Shown piece after piece: positions 32,186 through 61,382 of a DNA stretch of 64,000 nt (its first letter is position 1; the number at the start of each line of letters is the position of its first letter). The position numbers and the translations under genes were made by a program. The stretch comes from a virus: the IMG/VR virus record IMGVR_UViG_3300044615_000494. One strand, written 5' to 3'. Below the pieces are notes generated by a model. The model worked only from the letters and a program-made list of their open reading frames with translations, was not told the origin of the DNA and did no database searches.

Positions 32186-32186
32186 T

Positions 32187-33055: not shown

Positions 33056-33063
33056 ATAATTAT

Positions 33064-33774
33064 ATGAGCATAGGCTATAATCCATCAATCGCAACATCAG
33101 GTATAAGATTTTATTATGATGCTGCCAACCCACGCAGTTATCCTGGATCAGGAACTACGTTAACAGATATAAGCGGTAATGGTTTTAATGGCAGTCTTAC
33201 TAATGGCGTAGGATATAGTAGTAGCAATTTAGGTTCATTAGTTATGGATGGTGTAGACGATATTATATATGCACCATCAGTCAATACTATAGGTGCTATC
33301 CCAAATCAAACATACGAGATATGGGTTAAGAGCCCGGGTTTAGGTTCAGGAAAATACGTAGGTGGATTGATATGTCCTGATTACGGACAAATATCATATA
33401 TAGGGCCTGGTGGATCGATAACATATTATATATATAATACTGATGCATGGCCCTCAGCATCTTATATTGTTAGTTTACAAACTACAGGCGTTAACTGTTT
33501 TGACAATCAATGGCATCATATAGTATGCACTAGAAATAGCACTGATGCATTAATTTATGTAGACAATGTAGTGAGAGCATCTGGTTCCGGCGGCGGATCT
33601 TGGTCTGGGGCAACTATCTGGAGTAGTATGGCAATTTCTATAGGTAATAATCCAAATGATGTTTATTACAATCTGTTAGGAAATATTGCAGTAGCAAAAA
33701 TATACAACACTTATTTTACAGCAGCGAATGTAAGTCAAAACTTTAATGCACTGCGCGGGAGATTTGGTATATGA
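33064..33774 (+). CDS. LamG/ConA-like protein (member 9)
   Basis: Starts MSIGYNPSIATSG at 33064. Confidence 0.85.
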   Translation: MSIGYNPSIATSGIRFYYDAANPRSYPGSGTTLTDISGNGFNGSLTNGVGYSSSNLGSLVMDGVDDIIYAPSVNTIGAIPNQTYEIWVKSPGLGSGKYVGGLICPDYGQISYIGPGGSITYYIYNTDAWPSASYIVSLQTTGVNCFDNQWHHIVCTRNSTDALIYVDNVVRASGSGGGSWSGATIWSSMAISIGNNPNDVYYNLLGNIAVAKIYNTYFTAANVSQNFNALRGRFGI

Positions 33775-35096
33775 GTGTAACAACAGGTCCTAATTTTGCA
33801 AGTACTAGCGGATTAGCATTAATGCTAGATGCTACCAATCCACAATCGATTGTAGGTAATCGTTCAATTATTAATTGGAATAACTGGACTACAGGTTCAG
33901 GCGGTGTTACTGGATATAATCAAAACGGTCAAACAGCAGAAAATGAAAGAGTAGTTGCAAGCAATCCTTGGGGAAACAATGCTGTAGTTTGGGAAGCAAG
34001 ACCATTGGCACAAACAAATGATGACGGTGGCTGGAATACAGACTCATTTAATATTGATAACACACAAATGTATCGTTATTCTGTATGGGTTCGCAGAACA
34101 TCAAGTACATCAGGTGGCACATTTTATTTCGGAATGTATGCTAATGGTGATGGCTCGCGCCGCATGGATAACAGTACAGTAGAAGGAAACGCCTACTGGG
34201 AATGTAGTGGTACAGGTTTACTAACACAGAATCAATGGTATTTGTGGGTAGGACATGTATACCCAGCAAATACAACTTACACAGGAAGAAATCCCAACAC
34301 CGGTTATTATACTACTAACGGTAGAGTAGGAGATATTAACGGTTGTAATATTGGCACCGGCGACTTAAAGTGGAGTTATAATTCTACAACGGGTGTACAT
34401 AGAACCTATTTGTATTATTGCGCAGATAACACCACAAGATTGCAATTCTATCAACCAAGAGTAGACTTATGTGACGGCACTGAACCTAGTATCGAAGAAT
34501 TACTACAGAATGCAGGCAATATTTGGTATGACATAAGTGGTAATAAAAACAACTGTACATTTTTAGATTTACCTTCTGCTAACACAGGTTACTATACATT
34601 TAACGGTACTAGTAATTATGGTAGCATTACAAATAATAGTACATTAAACTTTGCATCAGCACAAACATTACAGATAGTTATGCGTCACACGTATACAGTA
34701 GGTAGACGTAATCCATGGAATCAAGCATATGCCGGTTATGGTACATGGACTCATGAACAAGGCGAAAATATAAGTCAGTATTTCGGTAATGGTGGAGGAG
34801 ATAACACTCCATATATAGGTGTAACTAGTCCTAATACTCCTAGAAGTGTTTGGAATGTAATGTGTGCTACAAGAAGTACGAGCGAATTCAAATGGTTTAT
34901 CAATGGTAGTTTAAGTAGCACTACTGCTAATCCATATGGTACATTAGCAAACACAAGTGCTAATATATTGATAGGCAATGGATACGCAGGTTATTGGCAA
35001 GGTGATATGTCTATGGTTACTGCATATACTAGAGCCTTAACAGACAGTGAAGTAGCACAGAATTTTAATGCTATTCGCGGGAGATTTGGTATATGA
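33771..35096 (+). CDS. LamG protein with inserted domain (member 10)
   Basis: Family termini with a Trp-rich inserted domain of about 230 aa. Confidence 0.8.
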   Translation: MSVTTGPNFASTSGLALMLDATNPQSIVGNRSIINWNNWTTGSGGVTGYNQNGQTAENERVVASNPWGNNAVVWEARPLAQTNDDGGWNTDSFNIDNTQMYRYSVWVRRTSSTSGGTFYFGMYANGDGSRRMDNSTVEGNAYWECSGTGLLTQNQWYLWVGHVYPANTTYTGRNPNTGYYTTNGRVGDINGCNIGTGDLKWSYNSTTGVHRTYLYYCADNTTRLQFYQPRVDLCDGTEPSIEELLQNAGNIWYDISGNKNNCTFLDLPSANTGYYTFNGTSNYGSITNNSTLNFASAQTLQIVMRHTYTVGRRNPWNQAYAGYGTWTHEQGENISQYFGNGGGDNTPYIGVTSPNTPRSVWNVMCATRSTSEFKWFINGSLSSTTANPYGTLANTSANILIGNGYAGYWQGDMSMVTAYTRALTDSEVAQNFNAIRGRFGI

Positions 35097-35836
35097 GTGT
35101 CAATCTAGGACCAGACATTATAGAGACAGGCTTGATACTGTCTTATGATGCTATGAACCCACGAAGTTATCCGGGCTCTGGTTCTACATGGTATGATGTT
35201 AGTGGATTCGATAATCACGGGTCTATAAGCAATGGTGAATATAGCAATGGTTGGTTACAAAATAGTGGCAACGTAAGTAGTTTCTTTTATATTTCTACAG
35301 GTAATAGCAGTTCTTTGAACTCAGCGTTTAGTACAACAACTGGCGGCTGGACTATTGAAGAATCAGTATTGACTTACTCAACTAATTATCCAGAAGCAGA
35401 TGCAGGTACAGTTAGCAGCGGTGACGCATACTCGCCAGGTAATACAGGTTTTGACTGGCAGCATGGATATGGGGTCACACAATTTCAGATGGGTATGAGT
35501 AGCAATTCCGGTGGAGCATATGAAGATACCTGCCTATATACTGTACCAAGTCCTTACAATGCTTTTAATGTTTGGCGACTAAGGACTATGGTGTGGAATA
35601 GAGGTGCGAACACATTCGCGTTTTATATCAATGGTGGATTGGTGGGTTCTTCTAGTACACCTAACACATCAGGCACAAGCGTATATGATGGTGGTGGGGT
35701 GAGTTGGGGAACATTGTATGGTTGGAAGTTTTTTGGTAGACGCAGTACAATCAAAGTTTATAACGTTGCGTTGACCGCTGCACAAGTCAGCACGAATTGG
35801 AGTGCATGGCAAGGTAGATATGGGGTAAATGTATGA
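35093..35836 (+). CDS. LamG/ConA-like protein (member 11, divergent)
   Basis: GLILSYDAMNPRSYPGSG...VYNVALTAAQV...GRYGV. Confidence 0.8.
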   Translation: MSVNLGPDIIETGLILSYDAMNPRSYPGSGSTWYDVSGFDNHGSISNGEYSNGWLQNSGNVSSFFYISTGNSSSLNSAFSTTTGGWTIEESVLTYSTNYPEADAGTVSSGDAYSPGNTGFDWQHGYGVTQFQMGMSSNSGGAYEDTCLYTVPSPYNAFNVWRLRTMVWNRGANTFAFYINGGLVGSSSTPNTSGTSVYDGGGVSWGTLYGWKFFGRRSTIKVYNVALTAAQVSTNWSAWQGRYGVNV

Positions 35837-36585
35837 GTGTTTATGCAGGTCCAGATTATAGAAACTATAAAACGGCCAGTGAACTATTGTCCGCCTTTCC
35901 ACAACTAGCAGGTAGAGACAATTACTATATGTTGTATCCACAAGGCCCTAGCAGTAACGGCGTATTGACCTGGTGTGATATGACCACTGACGGCGGCGGC
36001 TGGATGATGATAGCACGTAGCCATCCTTCTACTATAAATTATGGCAGCACTAACTGGGGCTGGCGTGGTGGCGCGATAGGTGATGTTAAAGATTTTAGTC
36101 AAGCATATCAGTTAGGTTGGTTCACTTATTTTTATAATAATACTACATTCTCAAGTTTTATATTTGGCAACAGAGGAAACTATTACAACAATACTTGGGG
36201 ATATTTTATCTACAAAAGATTTGGATTTACATACAATGATTTGATGAATAGTGACACACAACAAGGGGCTTCAGCATCGACACTACAATCTAATACTAGT
36301 GTTTATGGTGACTCAGGTTTTCCGGGAATGCAAAGTGCTATAGGATTTGCCACTTCAGCCACTAGTAGTAACTTTTATTATATGCGTGATTGTTGCGGAT
36401 TCGCAGGTTACGGAGCCTATCCTACTTCAATGGTCACAACATATTGCGGAGCGAATTTCTATTATGCAGGCCCCTGGTGCGGTGGGTCATCTACAGATGG
36501 AAGCGGAAATTTCTTGGCAAATAGTTACGTGTCTAATGGATTGACATATGGCGGAACTAATCAATATATGATCATGGTGAAATAA
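35833..36585 (+). CDS. Fibrinogen-C/intelectin-like domain protein
   Basis: YYMLYP...TWCDMTTDGGGWMMIAR is the hallmark fibrinogen-related N-subdomain. Confidence 0.7.
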   Translation: MSVYAGPDYRNYKTASELLSAFPQLAGRDNYYMLYPQGPSSNGVLTWCDMTTDGGGWMMIARSHPSTINYGSTNWGWRGGAIGDVKDFSQAYQLGWFTYFYNNTTFSSFIFGNRGNYYNNTWGYFIYKRFGFTYNDLMNSDTQQGASASTLQSNTSVYGDSGFPGMQSAIGFATSATSSNFYYMRDCCGFAGYGAYPTSMVTTYCGANFYYAGPWCGGSSTDGSGNFLANSYVSNGLTYGGTNQYMIMVK

Positions 36586-51308: not shown

Positions 51309-51866
51309 TCTGCCTATAAGCATCATTCTATTATACTTTAGATGCCCATAGTCAAATACTTTTTCACCTTCGAAAAGTATTTGACCCATGGGAAACTTTG
51401 ATTTAAAGTCTTGCATATCAGGTATAGGATGAGTGATGTTCCATACAGGATCATCATTCACTACATTACTAGACTGTATACAAACTAATTGATATGGATT
51501 GACTTTATGATACCAAGTTGCGTCCATATGCTCACAACTAGTATTGATGATCACATTATTGTATCCTAACTCTTTATGAGATATGGTATCAATATGTTTA
51601 GTGACGTTACGTAGTTTGTGCCCTTCACCTATCATCCAAGCATTATTAATTTTGTCTGCTATCTGAGTAGCACGGTCATCTACATCTACTCCTTGTATCA
51701 TATTATACGTCTCTGATTTCCTAGTCAACATCATAAACCCTAGTAAATTATACCAGGATCCTATGATCATGACTTGTGCAGGATCGGGTAAATGCTGTTC
51801 TAATTCTTCACAAAGCCAAAGTTTGCTTTGTAATTGTCCGTGACTGAATGCGTTGAAGTCTATCAT
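51303..51866 (-). CDS. Class I SAM-dependent methyltransferase-like protein
   Basis: Start MIDFNAFSHGQ at 51866. IIGSWY...GVDVD...INTSCEHM pattern. Confidence 0.6.
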   Translation of the reverse strand: MIDFNAFSHGQLQSKLWLCEELEQHLPDPAQVMIIGSWYNLLGFMMLTRKSETYNMIQGVDVDDRATQIADKINNAWMIGEGHKLRNVTKHIDTISHKELGYNNVIINTSCEHMDATWYHKVNPYQLVCIQSSNVVNDDPVWNITHPIPDMQDFKSKFPMGQILFEGEKVFDYGHLKYNRMMLIGRL

Positions 51867-51952
51867 GCTTATATTTACTAACGTTGGTTGATGTATAAAT
51901 AAAACGATGGACTTGTAGAGTCCTTTTTCTATTATATAATCAGGAGAAAAAT

Positions 51953-52135
51953 ATGAAGAATGTAATCGTTTTGGGTTTAGTAGCACTTGCTCTTGTAGCA
52001 TGCGGCAAGAAGGAAGAAGTTAAGGTCGAGCCAGTAGTTGAGGCTGCACCAGCAGTCGTTGCCCCTGCCCCAGCCGCTGAAGTGGGCAAGCCTGCTGATG
52101 AGAAGGTTGAAGCCACTGCACCAGCAGCCAAGTAA
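51953..52135 (+). CDS. Small lipoprotein
   Basis: Signal peptide with lipobox LVAC, then an Ala/Pro/Glu/Lys-rich tail. AGGAG SD. Confidence 0.85.
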   Translation: MKNVIVLGLVALALVACGKKEEVKVEPVVEAAPAVVAPAPAAEVGKPADEKVEATAPAAK

Positions 52136-52192
52136 TTTAAAAAAATCGCCGTTAAATGCGATAAAAAATTACAAGGAATAAATAAATTCACT

Positions 52193-52312
52193 ATGAATAC
52201 TTTACTACTCATATCTAAACATTGGTGTTCCTTACAGATTAGTAAGATGAATGCCTATGCCTTTGGATACGAGACACCACGCAACCAAAGAGATCATGAG
52301 GTGCCCGGGTGA
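52193..52312 (+). CDS. Candidate attenuator leader peptide (39 aa)
   Basis: Not in the ORF track. MNTLLLISKHWCSLQISKMNAYAFGYETPRNQRDHEVPG*, whose stop abuts the first CCCGGG. Confidence 0.6.
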   Translation: MNTLLLISKHWCSLQISKMNAYAFGYETPRNQRDHEVPG

Positions 52313-52342
52313 TGTAAGTTGTTGATTTATAACGAATTTATG

Positions 52343-52376
52343 TCCCGGGCCTAAAAAACCCGGGATTTTTGTTTTT
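52343..52376 (+). terminator. Rho-independent terminator with an alternative (antiterminator) pairing
   Basis: tcccggg-cctaaaaaa-cccggga followed by ttttt-g-ttttt. Confidence 0.85.
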
Positions 52377-52381
52377 GAGGC

Positions 52382-52410
52382 TTGACATTTGGTTTTAGAG
52401 GGTGCATAAT
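52382..52410 (+). promoter_or_regulatory. Sigma70-type early promoter
   Basis: TTGACA-17 nt-CATAAT. Confidence 0.8.
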
Positions 52411-52466
52411 ACATTCTGTGTTGATAATTTAAGGAGACACAGATTAGTAAAAGTTTTAAACAAGGC

Positions 52467-52495
52467 TTGACACGCACATGAATTTGTGCGATGAT
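52467..52495 (+). promoter_or_regulatory. Possible sigma70 promoter with a palindromic spacer
   Basis: TTGACA-17 nt-GATGAT. Spacer cgcaca-tgaatt-tgtgcg is an inverted repeat. Confidence 0.5.
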
Positions 52496-52649
52496 AGCAG
52501 ACTAGTGTGAAATTGAGGGAACGAGGTCCTCACAGCGCACTTTAAACATGCTGTAAACGGGCGGACAGTATACATGAAAGGGTTGGCGATAACTTCCCGA
52601 GTAAGACTACTGACTAGGGCATGACCCTAGTATAGCAAAGGAAACTTTG

Positions 52650-52737
52650 CTATTCTATAAGCACATTCGTTAATGCCATCAGGCTCTGCAACTCGCTTGG
52701 GTACTCCGTGTTAATTTTGAATGTGCTTATAGAATAG
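52650..52737. repeat. Perfect 19-bp inverted repeat just upstream of the first tRNA
   Basis: ctattctataagcacattc (52650-68) / gaatgtgcttatagaatag (52719-37). Confidence 0.9.
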
Positions 52738-52750
52738 TAAATAGTTCGTT

Positions 52751-52826
52751 GCCCATCTAGCTCAGTTGGTAGAGCACCTGATTAGTAATCAGGATGTCGG
52801 CGGTTCGATCCCGTCGATGGGCACCA
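52751..52826 (+). tRNA. trnT: tRNA-Thr(AGT)
   Basis: Acceptor GCCCATC/GATGGGC, anticodon arm cctga-TTAGTAA-tcagg, encoded CCA. Confidence 0.9.
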
Positions 52827-52839
52827 AAGTAAAGATTAT

Positions 52840-52915
52840 TGGCCTATAGCTCAGTCGGTAGAGCATTTGACTGTTAATCAAAGTGTCCCTGGTTCGAGCC
52901 CAGGTAGGCCAGCCA
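52840..52915 (+). tRNA. trnN: tRNA-Asn(GTT)
   Basis: Cloverleaf, loop CTGTTAA, CCA. Confidence 0.95.
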
Positions 52916-52996
52916 ATATTCTGTAGGTAAGATATGTTGAATAGGACATATCACGGTAGTTCGCGGTGTGTGGGGCGACTATCTCTTTTTAATTTT

Positions 52997-53072
52997 GCTC
53001 GGTTCGTCTAGAGGCCTAGGACGCCGCCCTTTCACGGCAGTAACACGGGTTCGAATCCCGTACCGAGTACCA
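52997..53072 (+). tRNA. trnE: tRNA-Glu(TTC)
   Basis: Loop CTTTCAC. One C-A mismatch in the anticodon stem. CCA. Confidence 0.92.
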
Positions 53073-53076
53073 GTTT

Positions 53077-53153
53077 GGGTCTATCGTATAATGGCATATT
53101 ATATCTGGCTCTTAACCAGAAAGATGCAGGTTCAAGTCCTGCTAGGCCCACCA
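53077..53153 (+). tRNA. trnK: tRNA-Lys(CTT)
   Basis: tctgg-CTCTTAA-ccaga, CCA. Confidence 0.9.
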
Positions 53154-53162
53154 AACCTCGGT

Positions 53163-53236
53163 TGAGGGATCATCCAATGGTAGGATAGCGGACTTTGACT
53201 CCGTTCATCTTGGTTCGAATCCAAGTCCCTCAGCCA
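53163..53236 (+). tRNA. trnQ: tRNA-Gln(TTG) copy 1
   Basis: gcgga-CTTTGAC-tccgt, U1-A72, CCA. Confidence 0.92.
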
Positions 53237-53436
53237 GATTATATCATCCTGTCCTTTGATGTAGTAGGGAATGATTATACGGTAAAACATCAGTACAGAG
53301 TGCGAGGTTGTCTGTTGGTAGCATGAATATACTATGAGGTGAACAGAATAGTCTATGTTGCGCGGGGGCATAGATGAGATCAAACTCTATTGTTGTTTAC
53401 GGTGGAGTTAGCCCGCGCCTTAACTAAATATTCTCT

Positions 53437-54036
53437 ATGAACAATTACTTTTTTAAAATAGCAAAATTTGATATCGATGAAACTCTGTTATACAACGAGT
53501 GGTTCCACGTAGCCAACAAATACGATGCGTTTAACAGGACTAAAAAGTTTATAGAAGATATCAATGGGGTAAAAGGTTACAAGACCTATCATAGGTTGCG
53601 AATCAACTATCCCGATAATATGAGTAGTGATATGGATCCAGTTATGATACAAGGGTATAACACTGAAGTAGAGGCTACTGGATATAGCATCGATAATATC
53701 ATTGATGATTTTAAAGGTTCGTATACTGAAAAGATTGCTAGACAAGTGCATGATTTCTTGCTTGAAAAATATCCGGCATATATCGTCACTAATATCAAGT
53801 ATCATTCGATATCACCCAAATCATCAATGACGTTGCATATTGATGATAGCACTAGACCTAGATTTTTTCTTTCTGCTAGCGTACCCGAAGGTTGTTTCAT
53901 GCAAATAAACAATGAGAAGATTCCTATGCATGAGACCGGCGCATTGTACAGAATGATATGCAAAGTGCTACATAATCCATTAAATGAAAGTGATGGTTAT
54001 CGTGTTTCTATGGTTTTTGATATAGCACATAAGTAA
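53437..54036 (+). CDS. 2OG-Fe(II) oxygenase / Asp-Asn beta-hydroxylase-like protein
   Basis: LHID (HxD), LHNPLN (H) and YRVS (R) motifs. Confidence 0.7.
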   Translation: MNNYFFKIAKFDIDETLLYNEWFHVANKYDAFNRTKKFIEDINGVKGYKTYHRLRINYPDNMSSDMDPVMIQGYNTEVEATGYSIDNIIDDFKGSYTEKIARQVHDFLLEKYPAYIVTNIKYHSISPKSSMTLHIDDSTRPRFFLSASVPEGCFMQINNEKIPMHETGALYRMICKVLHNPLNESDGYRVSMVFDIAHK

Positions 54037-54052
54037 GTGCTAAATAAGTTTT

Positions 54053-54210
54053 GTGAGAGTCCGAAAGCAAAGAGTTTAACCAACTACCTGGCTATCAAGG
54101 ATGTATCCGACCTTTTGTTATATTCGATCCCGGTTATTAGGGTGTGCTGTGGTGGCACTGGAAACAAAAGGGGGCATATCTAGCCCTTAAACGGACGATA
54201 GCACCCTCAC
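54053..54210 (+). ncRNA. Candidate rod-shaped ncRNA (about 160 nt)
   Basis: Nested pairings gtgag/ctcac, gtcc/ggac, gtttaa/ttaaac, ggcta/tagcc and ccttttgtt/aacaaaagg. TAAATA motif at 54041-46. Confidence 0.55.
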
Positions 54211-54221
54211 CCCGAATTAAC

Positions 54222-54297
54222 GGGCCTGTAGCTCAGTTGGGAGAGCGCCAGCTTTGCAAGCTGGATGTCGCAAGTTCGATCCTTGTCAGGTCCACCA
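54222..54297 (+). tRNA. trnA: tRNA-Ala(TGC)
   Basis: Loop TTTGCAA, G3-U70, CCA. Confidence 0.95.
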
Positions 54298-54316
54298 GAT
54301 TTTAAGTGAGTTTAAA

Positions 54317-54751
54317 TTGTTGCATCTTATAAATGATTTCACAGATAAGTTTTTCAGTTTCTTGTTAGAAGATCCTGTGAGACCAAATATTCCTCAAGTT
54401 GACCGTATAGGCAACAACAAGGATATCTTTGTCATGCGTGATGAAGATGATAAGGCACAAGCGATAACCTGTGTGAGTTATCAAAAATCTGTTCCTACTA
54501 GTGAGGCTGATCTTTTTGAAATGTGTGAAGAACCCGAGATCGCGGTTTTTTATACGATTTGGAGTTATAAAGCCGGAGCCGGTAGACAATTGATATTTGA
54601 TGCCGCACAGTATATCAAAGAAAACAGACCTGAGATCAAACGTTTTGTCACATTAAGTCCTAAGACTGAAATGGCTAAAAGGTTTCATCTTAAGAACGGT
54701 GCTTTAGTATTCAGAGAAAATACAGACACCGTTAACTATGAATATCTATAA
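54317..54751 (+). CDS. Hypothetical protein, GNAT-like
   Basis: AVFYTIWSY..GAGRQLI...TLSP....RFHLKNGA resembles acetyl-CoA-binding motifs. Start after the tRNA (TTG at about 54317). Confidence 0.55.
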   Translation: MLHLINDFTDKFFSFLLEDPVRPNIPQVDRIGNNKDIFVMRDEDDKAQAITCVSYQKSVPTSEADLFEMCEEPEIAVFYTIWSYKAGAGRQLIFDAAQYIKENRPEIKRFVTLSPKTEMAKRFHLKNGALVFRENTDTVNYEYL

Positions 54752-54755
54752 ATGT

Positions 54756-54830
54756 CGCAGAGTGGAGAAGGGGTATCTCGTCAGGCTCATAACCTGAAGG
54801 TCGGTGGTTCGATTCCATCCTCTGCAACCA
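54756..54830 (+). tRNA. trnfM: Initiator tRNA-fMet(CAT)
   Basis: C1:A72 mismatch, loop CTCATAA, CCA. Confidence 0.88.
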
Positions 54831-54856
54831 ATAACTGTTGTTAAAATACAACAGGC

Positions 54857-54885
54857 TTGACAACGGGACATTTCGGCACTATAAT
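54857..54885 (+). promoter_or_regulatory. Consensus sigma70 promoter
   Basis: TTGACA-17 nt-TATAAT. Confidence 0.9.
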
Positions 54886-54940
54886 ACATGTATTGATGCT
54901 GAAAAAGCGTCCCGTTCTTTAAAATACACGATTTTTTTAT

Positions 54941-55016
54941 ATACCGGTAGCTCAACTGGCAGAGTAGCGGTCTCCAAAACCGCAGGTTGGGGGTTCGATT
55001 CCCTCCCGGTATGCCA
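54941..55016 (+). tRNA. trnW: tRNA-Trp(CCA)
   Basis: gcggt-CTCCAAA-accgc, CCA end. Confidence 0.95.
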
Positions 55017-55022
55017 AATTAT

Positions 55023-55100
55023 GTGTCGGTGGCAGAGCGGCCCATTGCAACGGATTGCAAATCCGTAAAACCGTCAGTTCAAATCTGACCCGACACTCCA
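55023..55100 (+). tRNA. trnC: tRNA-Cys(GCA)
   Basis: acgga-TTGCAAA-tccgt, U73, CCA. Confidence 0.93.
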
Positions 55101-55104
55101 AGTT

Positions 55105-55625
55105 TCATCGGAAAATGGCTGTGACCACCATAACCAGCCCAGTGCTTTTGTACGGCGCAATTCTAGACAAGCCAGAGAGAGCAAACGATAGCAGGGAGAT
55201 TGCTATCCATAACGATGAGCCCTACGTTCCGGGTGTCTCCGGATAGTGTGACCCACACGATGAGAAGTAGTGTGACAACTACGGGTGGTAGTCTTTAAAC
55301 CAAAAGGCCGCTGGCAGTGCGAGAACGGTCCCTGTCGGGAAGCGGGTGGAAGGAGTGTGTGATGGGTATGATAGCGTCATATCTTGATACTCTATAATTA
55401 CCGCCGGGGGACGCAGAGCATTTTAAAATATATTAAGGGTTACCTGATCCGTTAGGTACTTTAAGAGAGGAGCACAGGGGCCGCCCTACGCAATCTTAGA
55501 GTACAGGAAGCGTATGAGTACATTGTACCGAACGTGACGGGCAGTTAGGCAGTAATGACGAAACTGAAAATATGAGAGACGGTCTCATATAGCAAGTCTA
55601 GTTCCCTTAGTGTATTTTAAAATGC
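55105..55625 (+). ncRNA. Candidate large structured RNA (about 520 nt; about 730 nt if it starts at the 54857 promoter)
   Basis: GC-richer block without a long ORF. Many helices plus a 22-bp inverted repeat 55418-39/55604-25. Confidence 0.6.
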
Positions 55626-55639
55626 TAAATTAAATATGC

Positions 55640-55724
55640 GGAGATGAAGCATCAATGGTGATGCAGTGGACTGTAAATCCGCCGCCTTCGGGCACGACTG
55701 GTTCGATCCCAGTAATCTCCACCA
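55640..55724 (+). tRNA. trnY: tRNA-Tyr(GTA)
   Basis: Loop CTGTAAA, long variable arm, CCA. Atypical A8 and G7:A66. Confidence 0.85.
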
Positions 55725-55731
55725 AATATTA

Positions 55732-55808
55732 GCCTCAATAGCTCAGTTGGTTAGAGCATCGTCTTGATAAGGCGGGGGTCCATAGTTCGAATCTATGTTG
55801 AGGCACCA
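55732..55808 (+). tRNA. trnI: tRNA-Ile(GAT)
   Basis: Loop TTGATAA, CCA. Confidence 0.93.
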
Positions 55809-55811
55809 ATT

Positions 55812-55887
55812 GGCAGTGTAGCATAGCGGTTAATGCGCTTCCTTCATACGGAATAGATCGTGTGTTCGAATCACACCACTGCTACCA
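55812..55887 (+). tRNA. trnM: tRNA-Met(CAT), probably elongator
   Basis: Loop TTCATAC, paired 1-72, CCA. An Ile2 identity is not excluded. Confidence 0.85.
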
Positions 55888-55889
55888 AT

Positions 55890-55966
55890 GGTGGCTGTCG
55901 TCAAGCGGTTAAGACCATGGATTGTGATTCCATTATACGTGGGTTCGATTCCCACCAGTCACCCCA
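55890..55966 (+). tRNA. trnH: tRNA-His(GTG)
   Basis: G-1:C73, loop TTGTGAT, CCA. Confidence 0.93.
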
Positions 55967-55970
55967 AATT

Positions 55971-56046
55971 GCCATAGTAGCTCAGTTGGTAGAGCAACGG
56001 ATTGAAAATCCGTGTGTCGTTGGTTCGATTCCAACCTTTGGCACCA
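55971..56046 (+). tRNA. trnF: tRNA-Phe(GAA)
   Basis: acgga-TTGAAAA-tccgt, CCA. Confidence 0.95.
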
Positions 56047-56051
56047 AAAGG

Positions 56052-56080
56052 TTGACAAATAGATTCTTTGATAGTATAAT
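56052..56080 (+). promoter_or_regulatory. Consensus sigma70 promoter
   Basis: TTGACA-17 nt-TATAAT. Confidence 0.9.
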
Positions 56081-56090
56081 TAAAGCATAA

Positions 56091-56182
56091 GGAGAGGTGC
56101 CCGAGAGGCCGAAGGGAGCGGTTTGCTAAACCGTCGAACGTAGAAATATGTTCCGTGGGTTCGAATCCCACTCTCTCCACCA
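56091..56182 (+). tRNA. trnS: tRNA-Ser(GCT)
   Basis: Loop TTGCTAA, long variable arm, CCA. Confidence 0.93.
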
Positions 56183-56390
56183 GACCCCGGTTTACACTTT
56201 TACGTTATATAAAGTGGGTGATTGTCGCAACCATACAGACACGGTGAGATCATTATCGACCGCAAGGCCTGATTTTACGGGCGACTTGAGACACATGATC
56301 GGGCAGAAGTGAAACTGACCTAGATGCAAATATCAACGGACAGGGTAACAACTCAGTTTGGGGCAGAACAGGGAACTGTAGCCAAACACT
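56183..56390 (+). ncRNA. Candidate structured RNA between tRNA-Ser and tRNA-Asp
   Basis: cacttt/aaagtg, gtcgc/gcgac, aaactga/tcagttt, gtttgg/ccaaac and acag-GGAA-ctgt. Confidence 0.4.
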
Positions 56391-56400
56391 TTAGAATTTT

Positions 56401-56477
56401 GGCCCGTTAGATCAGTTGGTTAGATCGCATGCCTGTCACGCATGAGGCCAGGGGTTCAAGTCCCCTACGGGTCGCCA
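56401..56477 (+). tRNA. trnD: tRNA-Asp(GTC)
   Basis: catgc-CTGTCAC-gcatg, CCA. Confidence 0.95.
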
Positions 56478-56484
56478 TATTTTT

Positions 56485-56561
56485 GCGTCTTTAGTTCAGT
56501 GGATCAGAATGCAACGCTACGAACGTTGAGGTCGGAGGTTCGAGTCCTTCAAGGCGCGCCA
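56485..56561 (+). tRNA. trnR: tRNA-Arg(ACG)
   Basis: caacg-CTACGAA-cgttg, CCA. Confidence 0.93.
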
Positions 56562-58035
56562 GCCAATCATCTATTTGATTTGCTATCTTATGAATCGTGT
56601 TCCTGCTGTATTTTCTCAATGCAGGTAAATCATTTATAGGAGTTCTATTGATAGGGTGTGTGCTATCATCATTATCTTCATCAGGCATGTACATTATAGT
56701 CAGGTTAGGATTATTGATATGTTTCTGCCAAGCATGATATAGATAATCATAACGCACATCCTTCTTGAATACATCTGAGTATTTTGGTAACAGTATCAAC
56801 GCCTTTCGCTGTGTATCTGATAAACGGTTCACGAAATGTGTGATGACGTTATCAAAATATTCTTTAGTGTGATTCTTTTCAAGAGACCAATACATGCTAT
56901 AATCGAAAATAAATTCGATGTACGAAGCGAACACAATGATCTTGGGTAATTTCTCAAAATTATACTGTGAGTGATATAATTTATCAGTGCGAAACAAATC
57001 TTCTAGTGGTATATTGTAATAGATTTGATCCATATATCTGCTATATGCGGCGTATGCAGGTCCTAAACAATGCATCAAGAACGCGATAGATGGTTCTTTA
57101 ACTGAAAGATTTTCTTGACCTCTGATGAAGTTTTCTAAAGAGGAATATTCATGTACGTTGATATAATCGATATCAGCATGATCTATACAATTGCTACCCA
57201 ATAACATTTTGTATTTGGATTTCAACAATTGCATACATCGTTGTTCAATATTCATGTTCATGACTCTGCAACTAAAAACAAAATTAGTTATAGTGGCTGC
57301 GTTTAATAATGAATCACCTTTAGTTTGTATTGAGATATAACCGATCAAACCATAATAACCATACTTGTCCCATGCGAATACAGCATAACTTTTTATGTCG
57401 TTTCTGAGGATATAATCTGATACTGTGTTTTTAGCAAAGCGACTATTGGTATAGTTAAGTTGATTGGATTTATTGACTAGTTCTTCTACTCTTTCTTGAT
57501 ATAACAAACAATCATGATTCTCTGCTATCGCTATATTGATATCAGAATCTTTTAAAAATTCAATATTAGAATCATAAGATTTTCTGATATCTTTCTTTGT
57601 TTCTAATATTCTATATTGTTTTGTTTTAGTATTATTTTGGGGTATGGCAAACTCATCTATGAATTTGTATGGGTCATTGTACGTAACTATGCCTGGACAA
57701 TAATATGTTGCTTCATTGAGGTTTATCATATTATCATCGATGAATACAACATCATCCGAACGTAACTGACAATCAGATATAATTTGATTTATCCTGTTAC
57801 CTTTCGGTAGTAGATTGATGCTTGGGAAAACAAAGAGTTCCCAAATATCTAGACTCTGTAGTTTTTTCTTGATACGATCATGATCGTTTTTAGAACAGAT
57901 AGAATGTATGATACCATTCTTTTCTGTGTTTTTTATAAATTCGATGATGTCTTGATTCGGCGAAGTATCGCCGCCTTCAGTGATACTACCACTCCATAGT
58001 ACACCATCAAGATCCCAGATAACAAGTTTAACCAT
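56491..58035 (-). CDS. FkbH-like HAD-IIIC phosphatase/transferase domain protein
   Basis: VIWDLDGVLW, SICSKND, VFIDDN..N, ELVNKSNQLN, DKYGYYGLIG and FVFSCRV match the FkbH family. Confidence 0.85.
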   Translation of the reverse strand: MVKLVIWDLDGVLWSGSITEGGDTSPNQDIIEFIKNTEKNGIIHSICSKNDHDRIKKKLQSLDIWELFVFPSINLLPKGNRINQIISDCQLRSDDVVFIDDNMINLNEATYYCPGIVTYNDPYKFIDEFAIPQNNTKTKQYRILETKKDIRKSYDSNIEFLKDSDINIAIAENHDCLLYQERVEELVNKSNQLNYTNSRFAKNTVSDYILRNDIKSYAVFAWDKYGYYGLIGYISIQTKGDSLLNAATITNFVFSCRVMNMNIEQRCMQLLKSKYKMLLGSNCIDHADIDYINVHEYSSLENFIRGQENLSVKEPSIAFLMHCLGPAYAAYSRYMDQIYYNIPLEDLFRTDKLYHSQYNFEKLPKIIVFASYIEFIFDYSMYWSLEKNHTKEYFDNVITHFVNRLSDTQRKALILLPKYSDVFKKDVRYDYLYHAWQKHINNPNLTIMYMPDEDNDDSTHPINRTPINDLPALRKYSRNTIHKIANQIDDWLARLEGLEPPTSTFVALHSDPLN

Positions 58036-58051
58036 ACAGATATTTAGTTAA

Positions 58052-58128
58052 GCCCAGGTGATGGAACAGGTATACGTGTCTGACTCAAAATCAGAATTTT
58101 GTGGGTTCGAATCCCACCTTGGGCACCA
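58052..58128 (+). tRNA. trnL: tRNA-Leu(CAA), short variable loop
   Basis: tctga-CTCAAAA-tcaga, 5-nt variable region, A73, CCA. Confidence 0.88.
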
Positions 58129-58132
58129 ATAT

Positions 58133-58207
58133 TGGGGATTCGCCAAGCGGTAAGGCATCGGATTTTGATTCCGACATTCCCAGGTTCGATCCCTGGATCC
58201 CCAGCCA
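58133..58207 (+). tRNA. trnQ: tRNA-Gln(TTG) copy 2
   Basis: tcgga-TTTTGAT-tccga, CCA. Sequence differs from copy 1. Confidence 0.92.
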
Positions 58208-58213
58208 AATAGT

Positions 58214-58242
58214 TTGACAAGTTCCGATGAAACAGTTATAAT
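58214..58242 (+). promoter_or_regulatory. Consensus sigma70 promoter
   Basis: TTGACA-17 nt-TATAAT. Confidence 0.9.
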
Positions 58243-58275
58243 TTTAATAGAATGATTGTACATTTGACAGATTAC

Positions 58276-58351
58276 GGGACGTTAGCTCAGTTGGTAGAGC
58301 AGTAGACTTTTAATCTATTGGTCACAGGTTCAAATCCTGTACGTCCTACCA
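58276..58351 (+). tRNA. trnK: tRNA-Lys(TTT)
   Basis: Loop CTTTTAA, CCA. Confidence 0.95.
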
Positions 58352-58371
58352 TTTTCAGGATAAATAAAAAT

Positions 58372-59136
58372 ATGAGTAAGTTGTTGATCACAAGCGGATG
58401 TAGTTTTAGTGAATGTCTATCGTCAAGTATCGATACTTGGCCTCGACATCTCACACGTAAATTAGAATCGCATGGTTACGATAAGCATATCAGTTGTGCT
58501 ATGGGCAGTCAAGGTAATGGATTGATTAGTCGTGGACCAATGTATGAAGTGACCAAAGCACTGAAGACTCATAAGCCAGAAGACATTCTTGTCGGCATTA
58601 TGTGGAGCCACAGCAATCGATTTGATTATCGTTGTGAAGACCCTACCGTATTGAGTTGGGGTCATGAGAACAAGCATCATTGGATGGTGAATCCACGATC
58701 ATTTGTAGATGGAGCACCCAATAATTGGGTGATCGGTAATCTACATTGGGATAGTATAGAATTCTCAACTCATTTGAAGTATTATCATAGTCATATCGGT
58801 TCATCAATATTGAGCCTTGAGCATATATTGCGCACTCAATATTTTTTGAAGTTGAAGAAAGTTCCATATTTCTTTACAGATTTTATAGACTATAATATAG
58901 TTGAGAAAGCATTCTTACATGAACCAGAATTGACTTATCTCATGGATGAATTAGACAAAGATCAGTATTTACCCGTAACGAGCGAACACGGTTGGTTGAT
59001 AGAAAATAGCATGACTAAGGAAGAATATCTTAAAGAACATAATGGTTGGCAGTGGATTCATCCTAAGACCCATCATCATAAAGAATTCGTAGATAGAGTT
59101 ATCTATCCTTGGTTGCAGGATAAAAAGTATATATGA
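58372..59136 (+). CDS. SGNH-like hypothetical protein
   Basis: TSGCSFSE...WPRHL...GSQGN...HP near the C-terminus. ATG at 58372. Confidence 0.6.
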   Translation: MSKLLITSGCSFSECLSSSIDTWPRHLTRKLESHGYDKHISCAMGSQGNGLISRGPMYEVTKALKTHKPEDILVGIMWSHSNRFDYRCEDPTVLSWGHENKHHWMVNPRSFVDGAPNNWVIGNLHWDSIEFSTHLKYYHSHIGSSILSLEHILRTQYFLKLKKVPYFFTDFIDYNIVEKAFLHEPELTYLMDELDKDQYLPVTSEHGWLIENSMTKEEYLKEHNGWQWIHPKTHHHKEFVDRVIYPWLQDKKYI

Positions 59137-59141
59137 TTTTT

Positions 59142-59217
59142 CTGCCCGTAGTTCAGGGGATAGAACAACAGCCTTCTAAGCTGTGGGTCGCAGGTTCGAA
59201 TCCTGCCGGGCAGGCCA
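59142..59217 (+). tRNA. trnR: tRNA-Arg(TCT)
   Basis: acagc-CTTCTAA-gctgt, CCA. Confidence 0.95.
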
Positions 59218-59231
59218 TAAAGTGAGGACTA

Positions 59232-59855
59232 ATGAGAGTTAAAGTATACAATGACAGCATAATTCATTTGATGTTTCCTAATCAAAAGGAACTCACTATG
59301 ACTTTATCTAGACCTCAAGAATTCTATGAAAGCAATAATTCAAAGTTGCGTAATAGAATTTTCACGTATGAACAATTCATAGATCATCATACACAAAAAG
59401 ACGGGTGTTTTGACTACTTCAGTTTTTGGGGTGGTTTTAATATACCTGGGCATATCTTAGAAGACTTCTTTGACGTTTTTGAATTGACCCAACGTGAAGC
59501 AGCGGTTAGGAAAATTACTAAGAGATACAAGCGAAAGCCTTACTATCTGATCGGTACGTTAGCAAAAGATGATGAGACGATGGTTCACGAACTACTACAT
59601 GCTCATTATTATTTGGATCCTGTGTATAAACAACAGGTAGATGTGCTAGTGAGGTCTATGAGTAAGACTCTAAGAGTAGAACTGACCACTGCGTTAAAAA
59701 CAATGGGTTATGCTAACCATGTGATAACGGACGAAATAAATGCGTACATGGCTAGTAGTAAATATAAGTACTTAAAAGAGGAATTAGAATTAGATGTTAC
59801 GAGGGCTGATATGAAGCCATTCGTAGAGTTGATGAAGACAATAATGCGGCGGTAG
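59232..59855 (+). CDS. Hypothetical protein with an HExxH motif
   Basis: VHELLHAHY...DEINAY (zincin-like). Stop lies inside tRNA-Gly. Confidence 0.65.
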   Translation: MRVKVYNDSIIHLMFPNQKELTMTLSRPQEFYESNNSKLRNRIFTYEQFIDHHTQKDGCFDYFSFWGGFNIPGHILEDFFDVFELTQREAAVRKITKRYKRKPYYLIGTLAKDDETMVHELLHAHYYLDPVYKQQVDVLVRSMSKTLRVELTTALKTMGYANHVITDEINAYMASSKYKYLKEELELDVTRADMKPFVELMKTIMRR

Positions 59856-59919
59856 TTTAATGGTAGAATGAGAGCCTTCCAAGCTCACGACAAGGGTTCG
59901 ATTCCCTTTCGCCGCTCCA
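59846..59919 (+). tRNA. trnG: tRNA-Gly(TCC)
   Basis: Loop CTTCCAA, U73, CCA. Confidence 0.92.
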
Positions 59920-59935
59920 AACAAAGGTGAATTTT

Positions 59936-60175
59936 ATGATGGATAGCAAACAAATGGCACTACAATATCTCATGGATTCGTGTGATGATATGGCTAGTGC
60001 TTGCGAGAAGAATTTAAAGTCGCTCGACAAGAAAAAGACCTTAAGAGATTTAGAACGAAATTTTGGTAACTTGCTAGCAAGTATTAAAGAAGTAGTCGAA
60101 GCATATAAGTTAGATGAGAACAAAGTTTTTTCCGAAGTAGAGAACTCTATACAAAAACGCAAAGAATCAATCTGA
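59936..60175 (+). CDS. Hypothetical protein
   Basis: ATG at 59936 after AAAGGTG. About 79 aa. Confidence 0.55.
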   Translation: MMDSKQMALQYLMDSCDDMASACEKNLKSLDKKKTLRDLERNFGNLLASIKEVVEAYKLDENKVFSEVENSIQKRKESI

Positions 60176-60181
60176 CTTGGT

Positions 60182-61315
60182 ATGAAGATTCTGCGTAAGA
60201 TAGTCAACATGGATAGTATGCTTTATGATGAGCATAGCCATGACATTTTTGAGAAACATGATCATTTCTTTCAACTAGATGATCGCTGGGAATATGTCGA
60301 TAATATAGAAGACGCAGACATAGTTCCTATATTACCAGCCGGAAAACCTAAACTTGATAAATGCTCACTTAGATTGAGAGACGATCAAGTACTATGTATG
60401 TTGATGTACTATTTGATAGATGATCACCATGATATATCATTTTTTGAAAATGTGCTAGAATACGCGGGGCATATAGCCAAAAATGTATTGATAGTGCATA
60501 AAAATAGTTTATTTAAAAATCATGTTCACGATAACATCGTGCATTATGATTCTATGTTTAGTATCACTAAGATGTGTTTTACCGAATATGAAAACTATGA
60601 TTTTACAGACCGTATTTGGAATCTATATTCACATAATGATACATATCGTTTACCGGATATAAAAAAGAATCTAACTAAAAAATTTATGTGTCCTACGTAT
60701 GTCTATCAACCATATACACATGCTAGGATGATCTATAGAGCAAAAGTTAGAGAAATCATAGAACCATATAAAGAATATGGTTATGTGAGTACAGATAAAG
60801 TCAAATTGATGCCTAATAGTCCGGTGACTGACCTCATGCTGAATAATATGATGAATAGTACTACTATACAATGGTATCCGGTCAGCGATGAATTATATAA
60901 CTCATCCTGTATCTCAGTTGTATGCGAGACTATAACGGGTTTATGCAATGAGGATAAAAAATATAATAAAGTTCAATGTGTCACAGAGAAAACACTAGAA
61001 CCATTGGCAAAAGGTAATTTCATATTACCATTTGGATATCCCGGATTGATACAAGATGTATTAGCATATGGGTTCAAATTACCAGAATGGATAGATTATT
61101 CATATGACGATTTACATGACATAGATAAACGATTTAACAAGTTCAAAACGATATTAGATAATTTATTAGGTAACATCTCTGTAGACAGATTACAAAAGTT
61201 TTGTGAAAGAGATATAGATATATTAGAACACAATAAACGGGTATTTTACTCTAGACCTTATGATAATTTATATGATATAATCTTGAGTAAATACAAAGAA
61301 TTATTGCCCAGGTGA
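60182..61315 (+). CDS. Hypothetical protein, possibly glycosyltransferase-related (exostosin/GT10-like C-terminus)
   Basis: ISVVCET...VTEKT...P.AKG.FILPFG...GFKL...IDYSYD pattern. Stop lies inside tRNA-Leu. Confidence 0.5.
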   Translation: MKILRKIVNMDSMLYDEHSHDIFEKHDHFFQLDDRWEYVDNIEDADIVPILPAGKPKLDKCSLRLRDDQVLCMLMYYLIDDHHDISFFENVLEYAGHIAKNVLIVHKNSLFKNHVHDNIVHYDSMFSITKMCFTEYENYDFTDRIWNLYSHNDTYRLPDIKKNLTKKFMCPTYVYQPYTHARMIYRAKVREIIEPYKEYGYVSTDKVKLMPNSPVTDLMLNNMMNSTTIQWYPVSDELYNSSCISVVCETITGLCNEDKKYNKVQCVTEKTLEPLAKGNFILPFGYPGLIQDVLAYGFKLPEWIDYSYDDLHDIDKRFNKFKTILDNLLGNISVDRLQKFCERDIDILEHNKRVFYSRPYDNLYDIILSKYKELLPR

Positions 61316-61382
61316 TGGAATTGGTATACGTGTTGGTCTTAGAAGCCAAATTTTGTGGGTTCGAGTCCCACCCTGGGCACCA
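61306..61382 (+). tRNA. trnL: tRNA-Leu(TAG), short variable loop
   Basis: ttggt-CTTAGAA-gccaa, 5-nt variable region, A73, CCA. Confidence 0.88.

What the first reader, a model, noticed from the sequence alone, without database searches (positions are those of the whole stretch)
52179..52376. All-20-amino-acid leader peptide coupled to an attenuator upstream of the 23-tRNA array: candidate translation-capacity sensor
Seen: a 39-codon ORF (52193-52312) encodes MNTLLLISKHWCSLQISKMNAYAFGYETPRNQRDHEVPG, containing every one of the 20 amino acids and 33 different codons (both Lys, Gln, Tyr and Asn codons, three Leu and three Ser codons, ATA, AGA, ACT). My inclusion-exclusion estimate for all 20 in 39 draws is about 3% with uniform frequencies and lower with real ones. 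Its last codons CCC GGG TGA are segment 1 of three self-complementary CCCGGG copies (52304, 52344, 52359). Segment 1 plus atgtaagtt (52312-20) pairs with aatttatgt plus segment 2 (52335-49) in a long helix; alternatively 2:3 forms a terminator followed by T5-G-T5. The two structures are mutually exclusive. A TAAATA late motif lies at 52179-84. Established: this is the logic of amino-acid attenuators, which normally sense one amino acid through a codon run. Inference: a ribosome reaching the stop masks segment 1, so 2:3 terminates; a stall at any codon (starvation or anticodon-nuclease cleavage of any host tRNA) frees 1:2 and allows read-through into the phage tRNA array. This would be a pan-tRNA sensor. 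Caveat: sigma70 promoters just downstream bypass it early, so it would matter mainly late in infection.
Basis: partly seen in the sequence, partly recalled or inferred. Interest (0 to 1): 0.9.

Follow-up and report, generated by a model that had tools for sequence, protein, structure and literature searches.

The report
All-amino-acid leader attenuator before phage tRNAs
Just ahead of its 23 tRNA genes this uncultured lake-water phage carries a 39-codon test gene that evolution keeps stocked with all 20 amino acids and that overlaps a stop/go RNA switch, so it probably lets transcription run on into the tRNA genes whenever ribosomes decode slowly.

Summary
ORF 52193-52312 has 39 codons, all 20 amino acids and 33 different codons. 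Three CCCGGG copies and an intrinsic terminator (52342-52376) follow it.

I found 31 homologous leaders in uncultured phage contigs, forming 18 clusters below 55% peptide identity. All lie upstream of tRNA arrays.
- **ORF:** it is open in every one.
- **Completeness:** taking the least diverse member per cluster, 11 of 18 hold all 20 amino acids. Four null models, one of them tree-based, expect 0.4-0.8.
- **Switch:** a segment in the last codons pairs with the terminator's 5' arm in every lineage and covaries (combined p about 1e-19).
- **Folding with a masked ribosome:** the antiterminator forms unless the ribosome has reached the last 6-10 codons.
- **Layout:** several lineages run promoter, leaderless ORF, terminator, tRNAs, with no other promoter.

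My first reading, a non-coding small RNA, was wrong. Nothing is shown by experiment.

In this window two strong sigma70 promoters follow the terminator, so the switch can only add to tRNA transcription here.

I found no published description. Earlier AI notes of this scan report the same kind of element on other DNA.

The parts
52145..52162 (+). Hairpin after the upstream lipoprotein-like gene. No T run follows it on the + strand, so upstream transcripts can enter the leader.
   Evidence: The stem covaries among relatives, and the loop motif CCGTTAAA recurs in the 5' UTR of L045 and L051. It is terminator-like only on the - strand.
52177..52184 (+). AATAAATA motif, resembling the T4-type late promoter box TATAAATA, 8 nt before the AUG.
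   Evidence: Conserved as NATAAATA in nearly all lineages. In lineages with their own sigma70 promoter it lies in the promoter spacer. In the window the same motif precedes large structural genes at 2519, 12862, 15877 and 20392, but its total count is not above chance.
52182..52201 (+). 5' strand of helix 1, including the AUG. It pairs with 52321-52341.
   Evidence: RNAalifold consensus, 18 pairs. It covaries between lineages A to E. It is not universal: combined p is only 0.02.
52193..52312 (+). Leader ORF: 39 codons plus TGA, all 20 amino acids, no Shine-Dalgarno sequence.
52228..52249 (+). Hairpin inside the ORF (helix 3, 8 pairs). Possibly an RNA polymerase pause or folding element.
   Evidence: 6 of 8 pairs show changes on both sides within 14 close relatives. 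Other lineages keep a hairpin of different sequence at the same place.
52275..52286 (+). Segment 0, the upstream partner of the segment 1 region (52299-52311) in the terminator state.
   Evidence: Helices 4 and 5 of the consensus fold. Little variation, so little covariation evidence.
52303..52320 (+). Segment 1 (GCCCGGG, the last codons) plus its extension across and beyond the stop codon. This is the antiterminator 5' strand.
   Evidence: Duplex with segment 2 is -13.4 kcal/mol, against -13.8 for the terminator. The equivalent segments covary in 18 clusters.
52321..52341 (+). Invariant 3' block. It is the 3' strand of helix 1 and also part of the extended antiterminator.
   Evidence: 100% identical in 14 close relatives, while flanking genes are 71-80% identical.
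52338..52349 (+). Segment 2: the terminator 5' arm (52342-52349) plus 4 nt upstream.
   Evidence: In L012 a change here is compensated in segment 3.
52359..52376 (+). Segment 3, the terminator 3' arm (52359-52366), and the T5-G-T5 tract (52366-52376).
52382..52495 (+). Two sigma70-type promoters (52382-52410 and 52467-52495) that bypass the switch in this lineage.
   Evidence: Conserved in relatives. Lineages that have a promoter in front of the leader lack them.
52496..52750 (+). Conserved structured RNA of unknown family between the switch and the first tRNA.
   Evidence: Conserved in all lineages. No Rfam match at E up to 1.
52751..61382 (+). tRNA array: 23 tRNA genes interspersed with small ORFs. 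It continues beyond the window.

Best explanation
This is a ribosome-mediated transcription attenuator at the head of the phage tRNA operon. Its leader ORF is selected to contain every amino acid.

Proposed mechanism. RNA polymerase transcribes the leader while a ribosome translates it. In relatives the transcript is leaderless. Segment 1 lies in the last codons. If it is free when segment 2 emerges, the two pair; that antiterminator blocks the 2:3 terminator, and transcription runs on into the structured RNA and the tRNA genes. If the ribosome has already reached the last 6-10 codons or the stop, it covers segment 1, the terminator forms and transcription ends. The ribosome must decode at least one codon of every amino acid to arrive in time. 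A shortage of any charged tRNA, or a general slowing of translation, therefore raises read-through and with it phage tRNA output.

Shown by comparison:
- the ORF is conserved;
- completeness is selected;
- the three-segment complementarity is conserved;
- the geometry is conserved;
- relatives have the layout promoter, leader, terminator, genes.

Inferred: translation of the ORF, conditional termination, and what the switch senses.

In this window's lineage the switch has lost its own sigma70 promoter and two promoters follow it. Here it can only modulate read-through of upstream or late transcripts.
For: 1. ORF kept open. It is open from the conserved AUG in every lineage, at 28-55 codons. 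P(open) is 0.04-0.13 per lineage, and the other two frames hold 1-6 stops. Within clade A the stop codon switches between TGA and TAA, and the one indel is 3 nt long.

2. No constraint on the peptide sequence. Variable columns by codon position are 15/16/16, against 52/38/156 and 115/86/158 in neighbouring genes. Representative peptides are at most 53% identical to each other. This is what a leader whose translation matters, rather than its product, should look like.

3. Completeness is selected. With the least diverse member taken for each of 18 clusters, 11 have all 20 amino acids.
- Random-base null and pooled-composition null: 0.39 expected, Fisher p about 4e-9.
- Column permutation: 0.78 +- 0.85, at most 6 in 5000 trials.
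- Neutral simulation on a tree from an all-20 root: 0.60 +- 0.80, at most 4 in 1500 trials.
- The other reading frames give 12-20 distinct amino acids. The ORF2 proteins of the same phages give 14-17 in 49-55 residues.

4. Switch conserved by covariation. The segment 1:2 duplex is -9 to -22 kcal/mol, about equal to each terminator and far better than anywhere else in the ORF. The paired sequences differ between lineages. Fisher p is 1.4e-19 (earlier test).

5. Geometry. Segment 1 ends between 19 nt before and 11 nt after the stop codon. The stop codon lies 23-36 nt before the terminator arm.

6. Ribosome-mask folding. In the transcript cut before segment 3, P(1:2) is 0.56-0.97 in 13 of 15 lineages without a ribosome, and stays high for every ribosome position except the last 6-10 codons. 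In the full-length RNA without a ribosome the terminator state is favoured in most lineages.

7. Operon layout. L065, L131, L190, L111, L137 and L152 have the sigma70 -35 box exactly 36 nt before the AUG, and L107 at 35 nt. That places the transcription start at or next to the AUG. L065, L131, L107, L172, L170 and L144 have no promoter between the terminator and the first tRNA.
Against: - No expression, ribosome or termination data could be obtained.
- In this window strong promoters immediately follow the terminator, and the leader has no sigma70 promoter of its own.
- In 8 of 14 close relatives segment 1 carries a central mismatch. In clade B the 1:2 duplex is only about -9 kcal/mol. In L033 and L027 the modelled antiterminator is weak.
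- 7 of the 18 cluster representatives lack one to four amino acids.
- L017 lacks Val in the leader but has tRNA-Val.
- There is no Shine-Dalgarno sequence, although only about 45% of this phage's genes have one.
- The folding models are equilibrium approximations with an assumed ribosome footprint.
Confidence: 0.6

Rival explanations
1. The translation-coupled switch is real, but it reads only whether the leader is being translated at all, for example ribosome availability or leaderless initiation. It does not read the supply of each tRNA. Amino-acid completeness would then serve some other end, such as an average, host-independent transit time.
For: The full-length equilibrium model shows sensitivity mainly when the ribosome sits on the first 10 or so codons or just before segment 1. 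Relatives have leaderless geometry. Missing amino acids do not track missing tRNAs.
Against: Selection for completeness has no obvious use for an on/off sensor. The truncated-transcript model makes every codon count.
Confidence: 0.15
2. The ORF encodes a functional small peptide with its own terminator. The complementarity of segment 1 to segment 2 only stabilises or regulates that mRNA.
For: The ORF is conserved. A few residues recur, including a central Trp and an Ile-Asn/Arg ... Asp stretch. It sits next to another small conserved protein, ORF2, in relatives.
Against: There is no third-position bias. Only three alignment columns reach 50% conservation across clusters. Single-copy residues such as Cys move position between lineages. 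There is no Pfam match. All 20 amino acids in 39-55 residues is not a property of small proteins: ORF2 proteins have 14-17.
Confidence: 0.1
3. It is a constitutive terminator that insulates the tRNA promoters from upstream transcription. The ORF and segment 1 are relics of an ancestral attenuator and no longer act in this lineage.
For: Strong promoters stand directly after the terminator and the leader has no sigma70 promoter of its own. Segment 1 is mismatched in 8 of 14 close relatives.
Against: The element is more conserved than the flanking genes in clade A; its 3' block is invariant while neighbouring genes are 71-80% identical. The ORF is still open in all 17 copies. The window's own copy keeps a perfect segment 1 and all 20 amino acids.
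Confidence: 0.1
4. It is a non-coding structured small RNA of about 185 nt ending in a terminator, and the ORF is incidental. This was my own first reading.
For: The internal hairpin covaries. Variation is flat across codon positions. Nucleotide conservation is high. The fold z-score is -3.2.
Against: The ORF stays open in 18 divergent clusters, at P of 0.04-0.13 each. Amino-acid completeness is visible only in the ORF frame. There is no Rfam family.
Confidence: 0.05

Closest known systems
Leader-peptide transcription attenuators of enterobacterial amino-acid operons (trpL, hisL, pheL, leuL, thrL, and the multivalent ilvGMEDA and ilvBN leaders)
   Same: A short ORF is followed by an intrinsic terminator. 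An antiterminator uses a segment at the end of the ORF. A ribosome at the stop codon favours the terminator and a lagging ribosome favours read-through. In relatives the order is promoter, leader, terminator, genes.
   Different: There is no run of codons for one or a few amino acids; each of the 20 is present, mostly once or twice. The controlled genes are tRNAs (plus a small protein and a structured RNA in relatives), not biosynthetic enzymes. The element is phage-borne. Relatives use leaderless initiation. By the folding model, absence of translation may give read-through rather than termination.
pyrBI and pyrE attenuators (sensors of the coupling between transcription and translation)
   Same: The signal is the relative progress of ribosome and RNA polymerase, not a specific regulatory codon.
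   Different: In those systems a closely following ribosome physically prevents the terminator hairpin, so tight coupling gives read-through. Here the stop codon lies 23-36 nt before the terminator arm, the ribosome cannot reach it, and the polarity is the opposite.
T-box riboswitches
   Same: They adjust gene expression to the charging state of tRNA by switching between a terminator and an antiterminator.
   Different: A T-box binds one specific uncharged tRNA directly, without translation. No T-box or other Rfam family matches here.
Ribosome-stalling leaders of resistance genes (ermC, cat, bmrCD)
   Same: A ribosome delayed on a short leader ORF remodels the downstream RNA structure.
   Different: Those respond to a drug and to a specific nascent peptide. 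Here the peptide sequence is not conserved.
Earlier AI notes of this scan on other genomes (e1-5391745, e1-5727550, e1-5365171 and others)
   Same: They describe leader ORFs with switchable terminators in front of phage tRNA arrays, two of them with all 20 amino acids.
   Different: They are unpublished and unchecked notes on other DNA. Some describe several leaders that divide the amino acids among tRNA blocks, whereas here a single leader carries all 20.

Membership tests
Ribosome-mediated leader-peptide transcription attenuator | A short ORF lies immediately upstream of an intrinsic terminator. | tested here: met
   ORF 52193-52312 and terminator 52342-52376. The same arrangement is found in 31 homologues, with the stop codon 23-36 nt before the terminator arm.
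Ribosome-mediated leader-peptide transcription attenuator | An antiterminator excludes the terminator and uses a segment that a terminating ribosome would cover. | tested here: met
   The segment 1:2 duplex is about as stable as the terminator in most lineages and covaries (Fisher p 1.4e-19). It lies at the end of the ORF in all lineages. It is weak in clade B, and mismatched in 8 of 14 clade A copies.
Ribosome-mediated leader-peptide transcription attenuator | The leader is enriched in codons of the amino acid(s) that regulate the operon. | tested here: not met
   There is no codon run: 33 different codons in 39. Completeness for all 20 amino acids is selected instead.
Ribosome-mediated leader-peptide transcription attenuator | The promoter is upstream and the regulated genes are downstream, with no promoter in between. 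| tested here: not met
   In the window two sigma70-type promoters follow the terminator and none precedes the leader. The feature is met in relatives L065, L131, L107, L172, L170 and L144.
Ribosome-mediated leader-peptide transcription attenuator | The leader is translated, and termination responds to translation. | not testable with these tools
Only ORF conservation and folding models bear on this.
Curated RNA families (Rfam: riboswitches, T-box, known small RNAs) | A match to a covariance model. | tested here: not met
   Nothing in 52179-52376 apart from a chance-level match on the terminator (E 0.74).
Protein-coding small gene under purifying selection | Variation is concentrated at third codon positions, and the peptide sequence is conserved. 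| tested here: not met
   Variable columns are 15/16/16 by codon position, against 52/38/156 in a neighbouring gene. Peptide clusters share less than 55% identity, with three columns at 50% or more conservation. No Pfam match.
T4-type late promoter (TATAAATA) | The box lies 6-8 nt before the transcription start, and the phage encodes a gp55-type late sigma factor. | tested here: inconclusive
   AATAAATA ends 8 nt before the AUG. Many relatives have the exact TATAAATA box. The motif precedes large structural genes, but its count in the window is not above chance. No late sigma gene was sought.

The most novel reading that the evidence does not exclude
The leader is a race track for a ribosome on a leaderless mRNA. 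It has to draw on all 20 aminoacyl-tRNA pools within the second or so that RNA polymerase needs to reach the terminator. On this reading it is a single-molecule sensor of the whole tRNA supply. It would let these phages switch on their own tRNA array, and in relatives the small ORF2 protein, when host tRNAs are depleted. Depletion could come from host shut-off or from tRNA-cleaving defence nucleases. That would make it a counter-defence trigger and the first known regulator of viral tRNA genes.
Probability: 0.35. Interest if true: 0.92.

Novelty: new variant of a known kind. Interest (0 to 1): 0.85.

Why it matters
Large phages often carry tRNA arrays. These are thought to compensate for codon-usage mismatch, for degradation of host tRNA, or for tRNA-cleaving defences. 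How the arrays are regulated is essentially unknown.

A leader ORF that evolution keeps complete for all 20 amino acids, wired to a terminator/antiterminator switch, would be a general sensor of translation capacity. That extends the classical attenuation logic in two ways: from one amino acid to all of them, and from biosynthetic operons to the translation machinery itself.

It makes a clear idea testable with ordinary reporter fusions: phages may make tRNAs on demand.

It also offers a compact natural part, of about 190 nt, for reporting global decoding speed.

The comparative signal is unusual in its own right. Selection appears to act on the presence of each residue type rather than on any position.

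Tried and rejected
**Non-coding small RNA (my first reading).** Rejected after divergent homologues showed a conserved ORF and completeness specific to the ORF frame.

**Rfam search of 51800-53000 at E up to 1.** Only tRNAs and chance matches.

**Cultured relatives.**
- Searches of 50,697 phage records with the window and with two relatives found only tRNA matches.
- The one protein hit, to Ralstonia phage RsoM2USA, has no tRNAs or leader nearby.

**Searches that could not run or found nothing.**
- The search for related loci with the 232-residue neighbour alone found nothing.

**Loose downstream-RNA pattern scan.** A blastn filter found homologues of the downstream RNA in 17 loci: three are identical copies and one is cut off. 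That left 14 distinct usable ones, all of which I analysed.

**Helix 1 (5' end with the 3' block).** Supported in lineages A to E, but not universal (combined p 0.02). I do not treat it as a defining part.

**Amino acids missing from a leader reflect tRNAs missing from the array.** Contradicted by L017. The arrays on most contigs are incomplete, so this test is weak.

**13-nt identity between the 3' block and the start of the gene at 58372.** About 0.4 such matches are expected by chance, and the two are same-sense, so they cannot pair.

**Type I toxin mRNA with 5'-3' fold-back.** The peptide is not hydrophobic and its sequence is not conserved.

**Other copies in the window.** A scan for further elements of this architecture found none.

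Full report
**What is in the window**

ORF 52193-52312 (+) has 39 codons, contains all 20 amino acids and uses 33 different codons. CCCGGG occurs at 52304, 52344 and 52359. Copies 2 and 3 form a hairpin of -13.8 kcal/mol, followed by T5-G-T5 at 52366-52376.

Two sigma70-type promoters follow directly, at 52382-52410 and 52467-52495. After them come about 250 nt of conserved structured RNA and then the tRNA array: 22 genes by ARAGORN and 23 by Rfam. AATAAATA ends 8 nt before the AUG, and there is no Shine-Dalgarno sequence.

All 20 amino acids in 39 residues has P about 0.0009 with this phage's protein composition. For an open frame of random bases with the element's composition, P is about 0.007. 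It is the only such ORF among 171 ATG ORFs of 30-60 codons in the window.

**First reading, later abandoned**

No cultured phage resembles the region. Exact-pattern scans found 17 close copies, 14 of them distinct, in viral and lake metagenome contigs. Four features made me read the element as a structured small RNA:
- The element is more conserved than the flanking genes. The block between the stop codon and the terminator is invariant, while neighbouring genes are 71-80% identical.
- Variable columns fall evenly on the three codon positions: 15/16/16, against 52/38/156 and 115/86/158 in neighbouring genes.
- A hairpin inside the ORF shows double changes in 6 of 8 pairs.

**Divergent relatives change the picture**

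I found relatives by two routes. One was an alignment of the neighbouring AhpD-like gene. The other was a pattern from the downstream structured RNA, filtered with blastn. Every usable locus from the second route was analysed, so the set was not picked by outcome.

Together these gave 31 leaders in 18 clusters below 55% peptide identity. All lie upstream of tRNA arrays. In every one an ORF of 28-55 codons runs from the conserved AUG. P(open) is 0.04-0.13 per lineage, and the other frames hold 1-6 stops. The stop codon lies 23-36 nt before the 5' arm of an intrinsic terminator.

**Amino-acid completeness is selected**

Taking the least diverse member of each cluster, 11 of 18 contain all 20 amino acids, and the mean is 19.2 distinct residues.

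| Null model | Clusters expected with all 20 |
|---|---|
| Random bases of the same composition | 0.39 |
| Independent draws from the family's pooled composition | 0.39 |
| Column permutation of the peptide alignment (keeps conserved columns) | 0.78 +- 0.85, at most 6 in 5000 trials |
| Neutral evolution along a neighbour-joining tree from an all-20 root | 0.60 +- 0.80, at most 4 in 1500 trials |

Fisher's combined p for the first two nulls is about 4e-9 to 8e-9. Two further controls agree. The other two reading frames of the same RNAs give 12-20 distinct residues. The small ORF2 proteins of the same phages give 14-17 in 49-55 residues. Single-copy residues such as Cys sit at different positions in different lineages. 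Selection therefore seems to act on presence, not position.

**The switch is conserved by covariation**

In every lineage the best complement to the terminator's 5' arm (taken with 4 nt upstream) lies in the last codons of the ORF. Duplex energies are -9 to -22 kcal/mol. That is about equal to each terminator and far better than anywhere else in the ORF. The paired sequences differ between lineages. The combined shuffle test gives p = 1.4e-19 (a narrower test is). Segment 1 ends between 19 nt before and 11 nt after the stop codon, so a terminating ribosome would cover it.

**Folding with a ribosome mask**

In the full-length RNA without a ribosome the terminator state is favoured in most lineages. 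In a transcript cut just before segment 3, segment 2 pairs with segment 1 with P 0.56-0.97 in 13 of 15 lineages when no ribosome is present. It stays paired for every ribosome position except the last 6-10 codons and the stop.

Termination therefore requires that the ribosome has finished the ORF in time, so a delay at any codon should favour read-through. These are equilibrium approximations with an assumed footprint. L033 and L027 do not behave this way.

**Operon layout**

Six lineages have a sigma70 -35 box exactly 36 nt before the AUG, and one has it at 35 nt. This places the transcription start at or beside the AUG, so the mRNA is leaderless. That also explains the missing Shine-Dalgarno sequence.

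Six lineages (L065, L131, L107, L172, L170 and L144) have no promoter between the terminator and the first tRNA. This is the classical order of promoter, leader, terminator, genes.

Most of these lineages carry a conserved small protein of 49-55 residues, ORF2, directly after the terminator. It has no Pfam family.

The window's lineage, together with clade B, L100 and L079, shows the opposite pattern. It has no sigma70 promoter before the leader and a strong one right after the terminator. Here the switch can act only on transcripts that arrive from upstream or from the late-type box.

**Verdict**

What remains inferred is translation of the ORF, conditional termination, and the nature of the signal.

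Four points count against a strict per-tRNA sensor:
- 7 of the 18 cluster representatives lack one to four amino acids.
- L017 lacks Val in the leader yet encodes tRNA-Val.
- Segment 1 is weakened in many close relatives.
- Promoters bypass the switch in this window.

Four literature searches found no description of such an element. Earlier AI notes of this scan describe the same kind of element on other genomes. I treat them as agreement, not as evidence.

Noticed in passing
window 52496-52750; also L033 about 6040-6270, L045 about 6105-6375, L078 about 5735-5990: A structured RNA of about 250 nt lies between the switch and the first tRNA in every lineage. It carries conserved AACGAG and GGGCGG motifs and, in the window, a long stem just before tRNA-Thr. 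It has no Rfam match. It may be a processing element or a stable RNA of the tRNA precursor.
   Followed up: partly
L131:9650-9811, L065:9434-9595, L144:258-419 and seven more (alignment A5): ORF2 is a conserved protein of 49-55 residues with a Shine-Dalgarno sequence. It follows the attenuator terminator directly in most lineages and is absent from the window. It carries a motif of the form LT-EQL--LI--K-ERA and matches no Pfam family. It would be the first product controlled by the switch.
   Followed up: partly
window 52751-52826: The first tRNA of the array is tRNA-Thr with anticodon AGT (A34). The same tRNA heads or sits early in the arrays of several divergent relatives (L022, L057, L045, L078, L079).
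   Followed up: no
window 55640-55721: Rfam calls a 23rd tRNA here (82 nt, 36 bits) that ARAGORN does not report.
   Followed up: no
window 2519, 12862, 15877, 20392, 48195, 51894, 58359: NATAAATA boxes stand just upstream of large structural genes and of several small ORFs. They look like T4-type late promoters, although the total count is not above chance for this AT-rich DNA.
   Followed up: partly
window 52314-52326 and 58376-58388: A 13-nt same-sense identity links the invariant 3' block of the leader to codons 2-6 of the gene starting at 58372. About 0.4 such matches are expected by chance.
   Followed up: partly
window 26362-36585: A run of about ten tandem paralogous genes of about 220-250 codons, several of them preceded by nearly identical junction sequences.
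   Followed up: no
window 52145-52162: A hairpin after the lipoprotein-like gene has a covarying stem. Its loop motif CCGTTAAA recurs in the 5' UTR of distant relatives (L045, L051). On the - strand it has the form of an intrinsic terminator.
   Followed up: partly
L024, L025, L026, L062 (for example L025:1909): Another small ORF of 45-49 codons is conserved in relatives and is preceded by the same NATAAATA box. It has 16 distinct residues, so it looks like an ordinary small protein.
   Followed up: no
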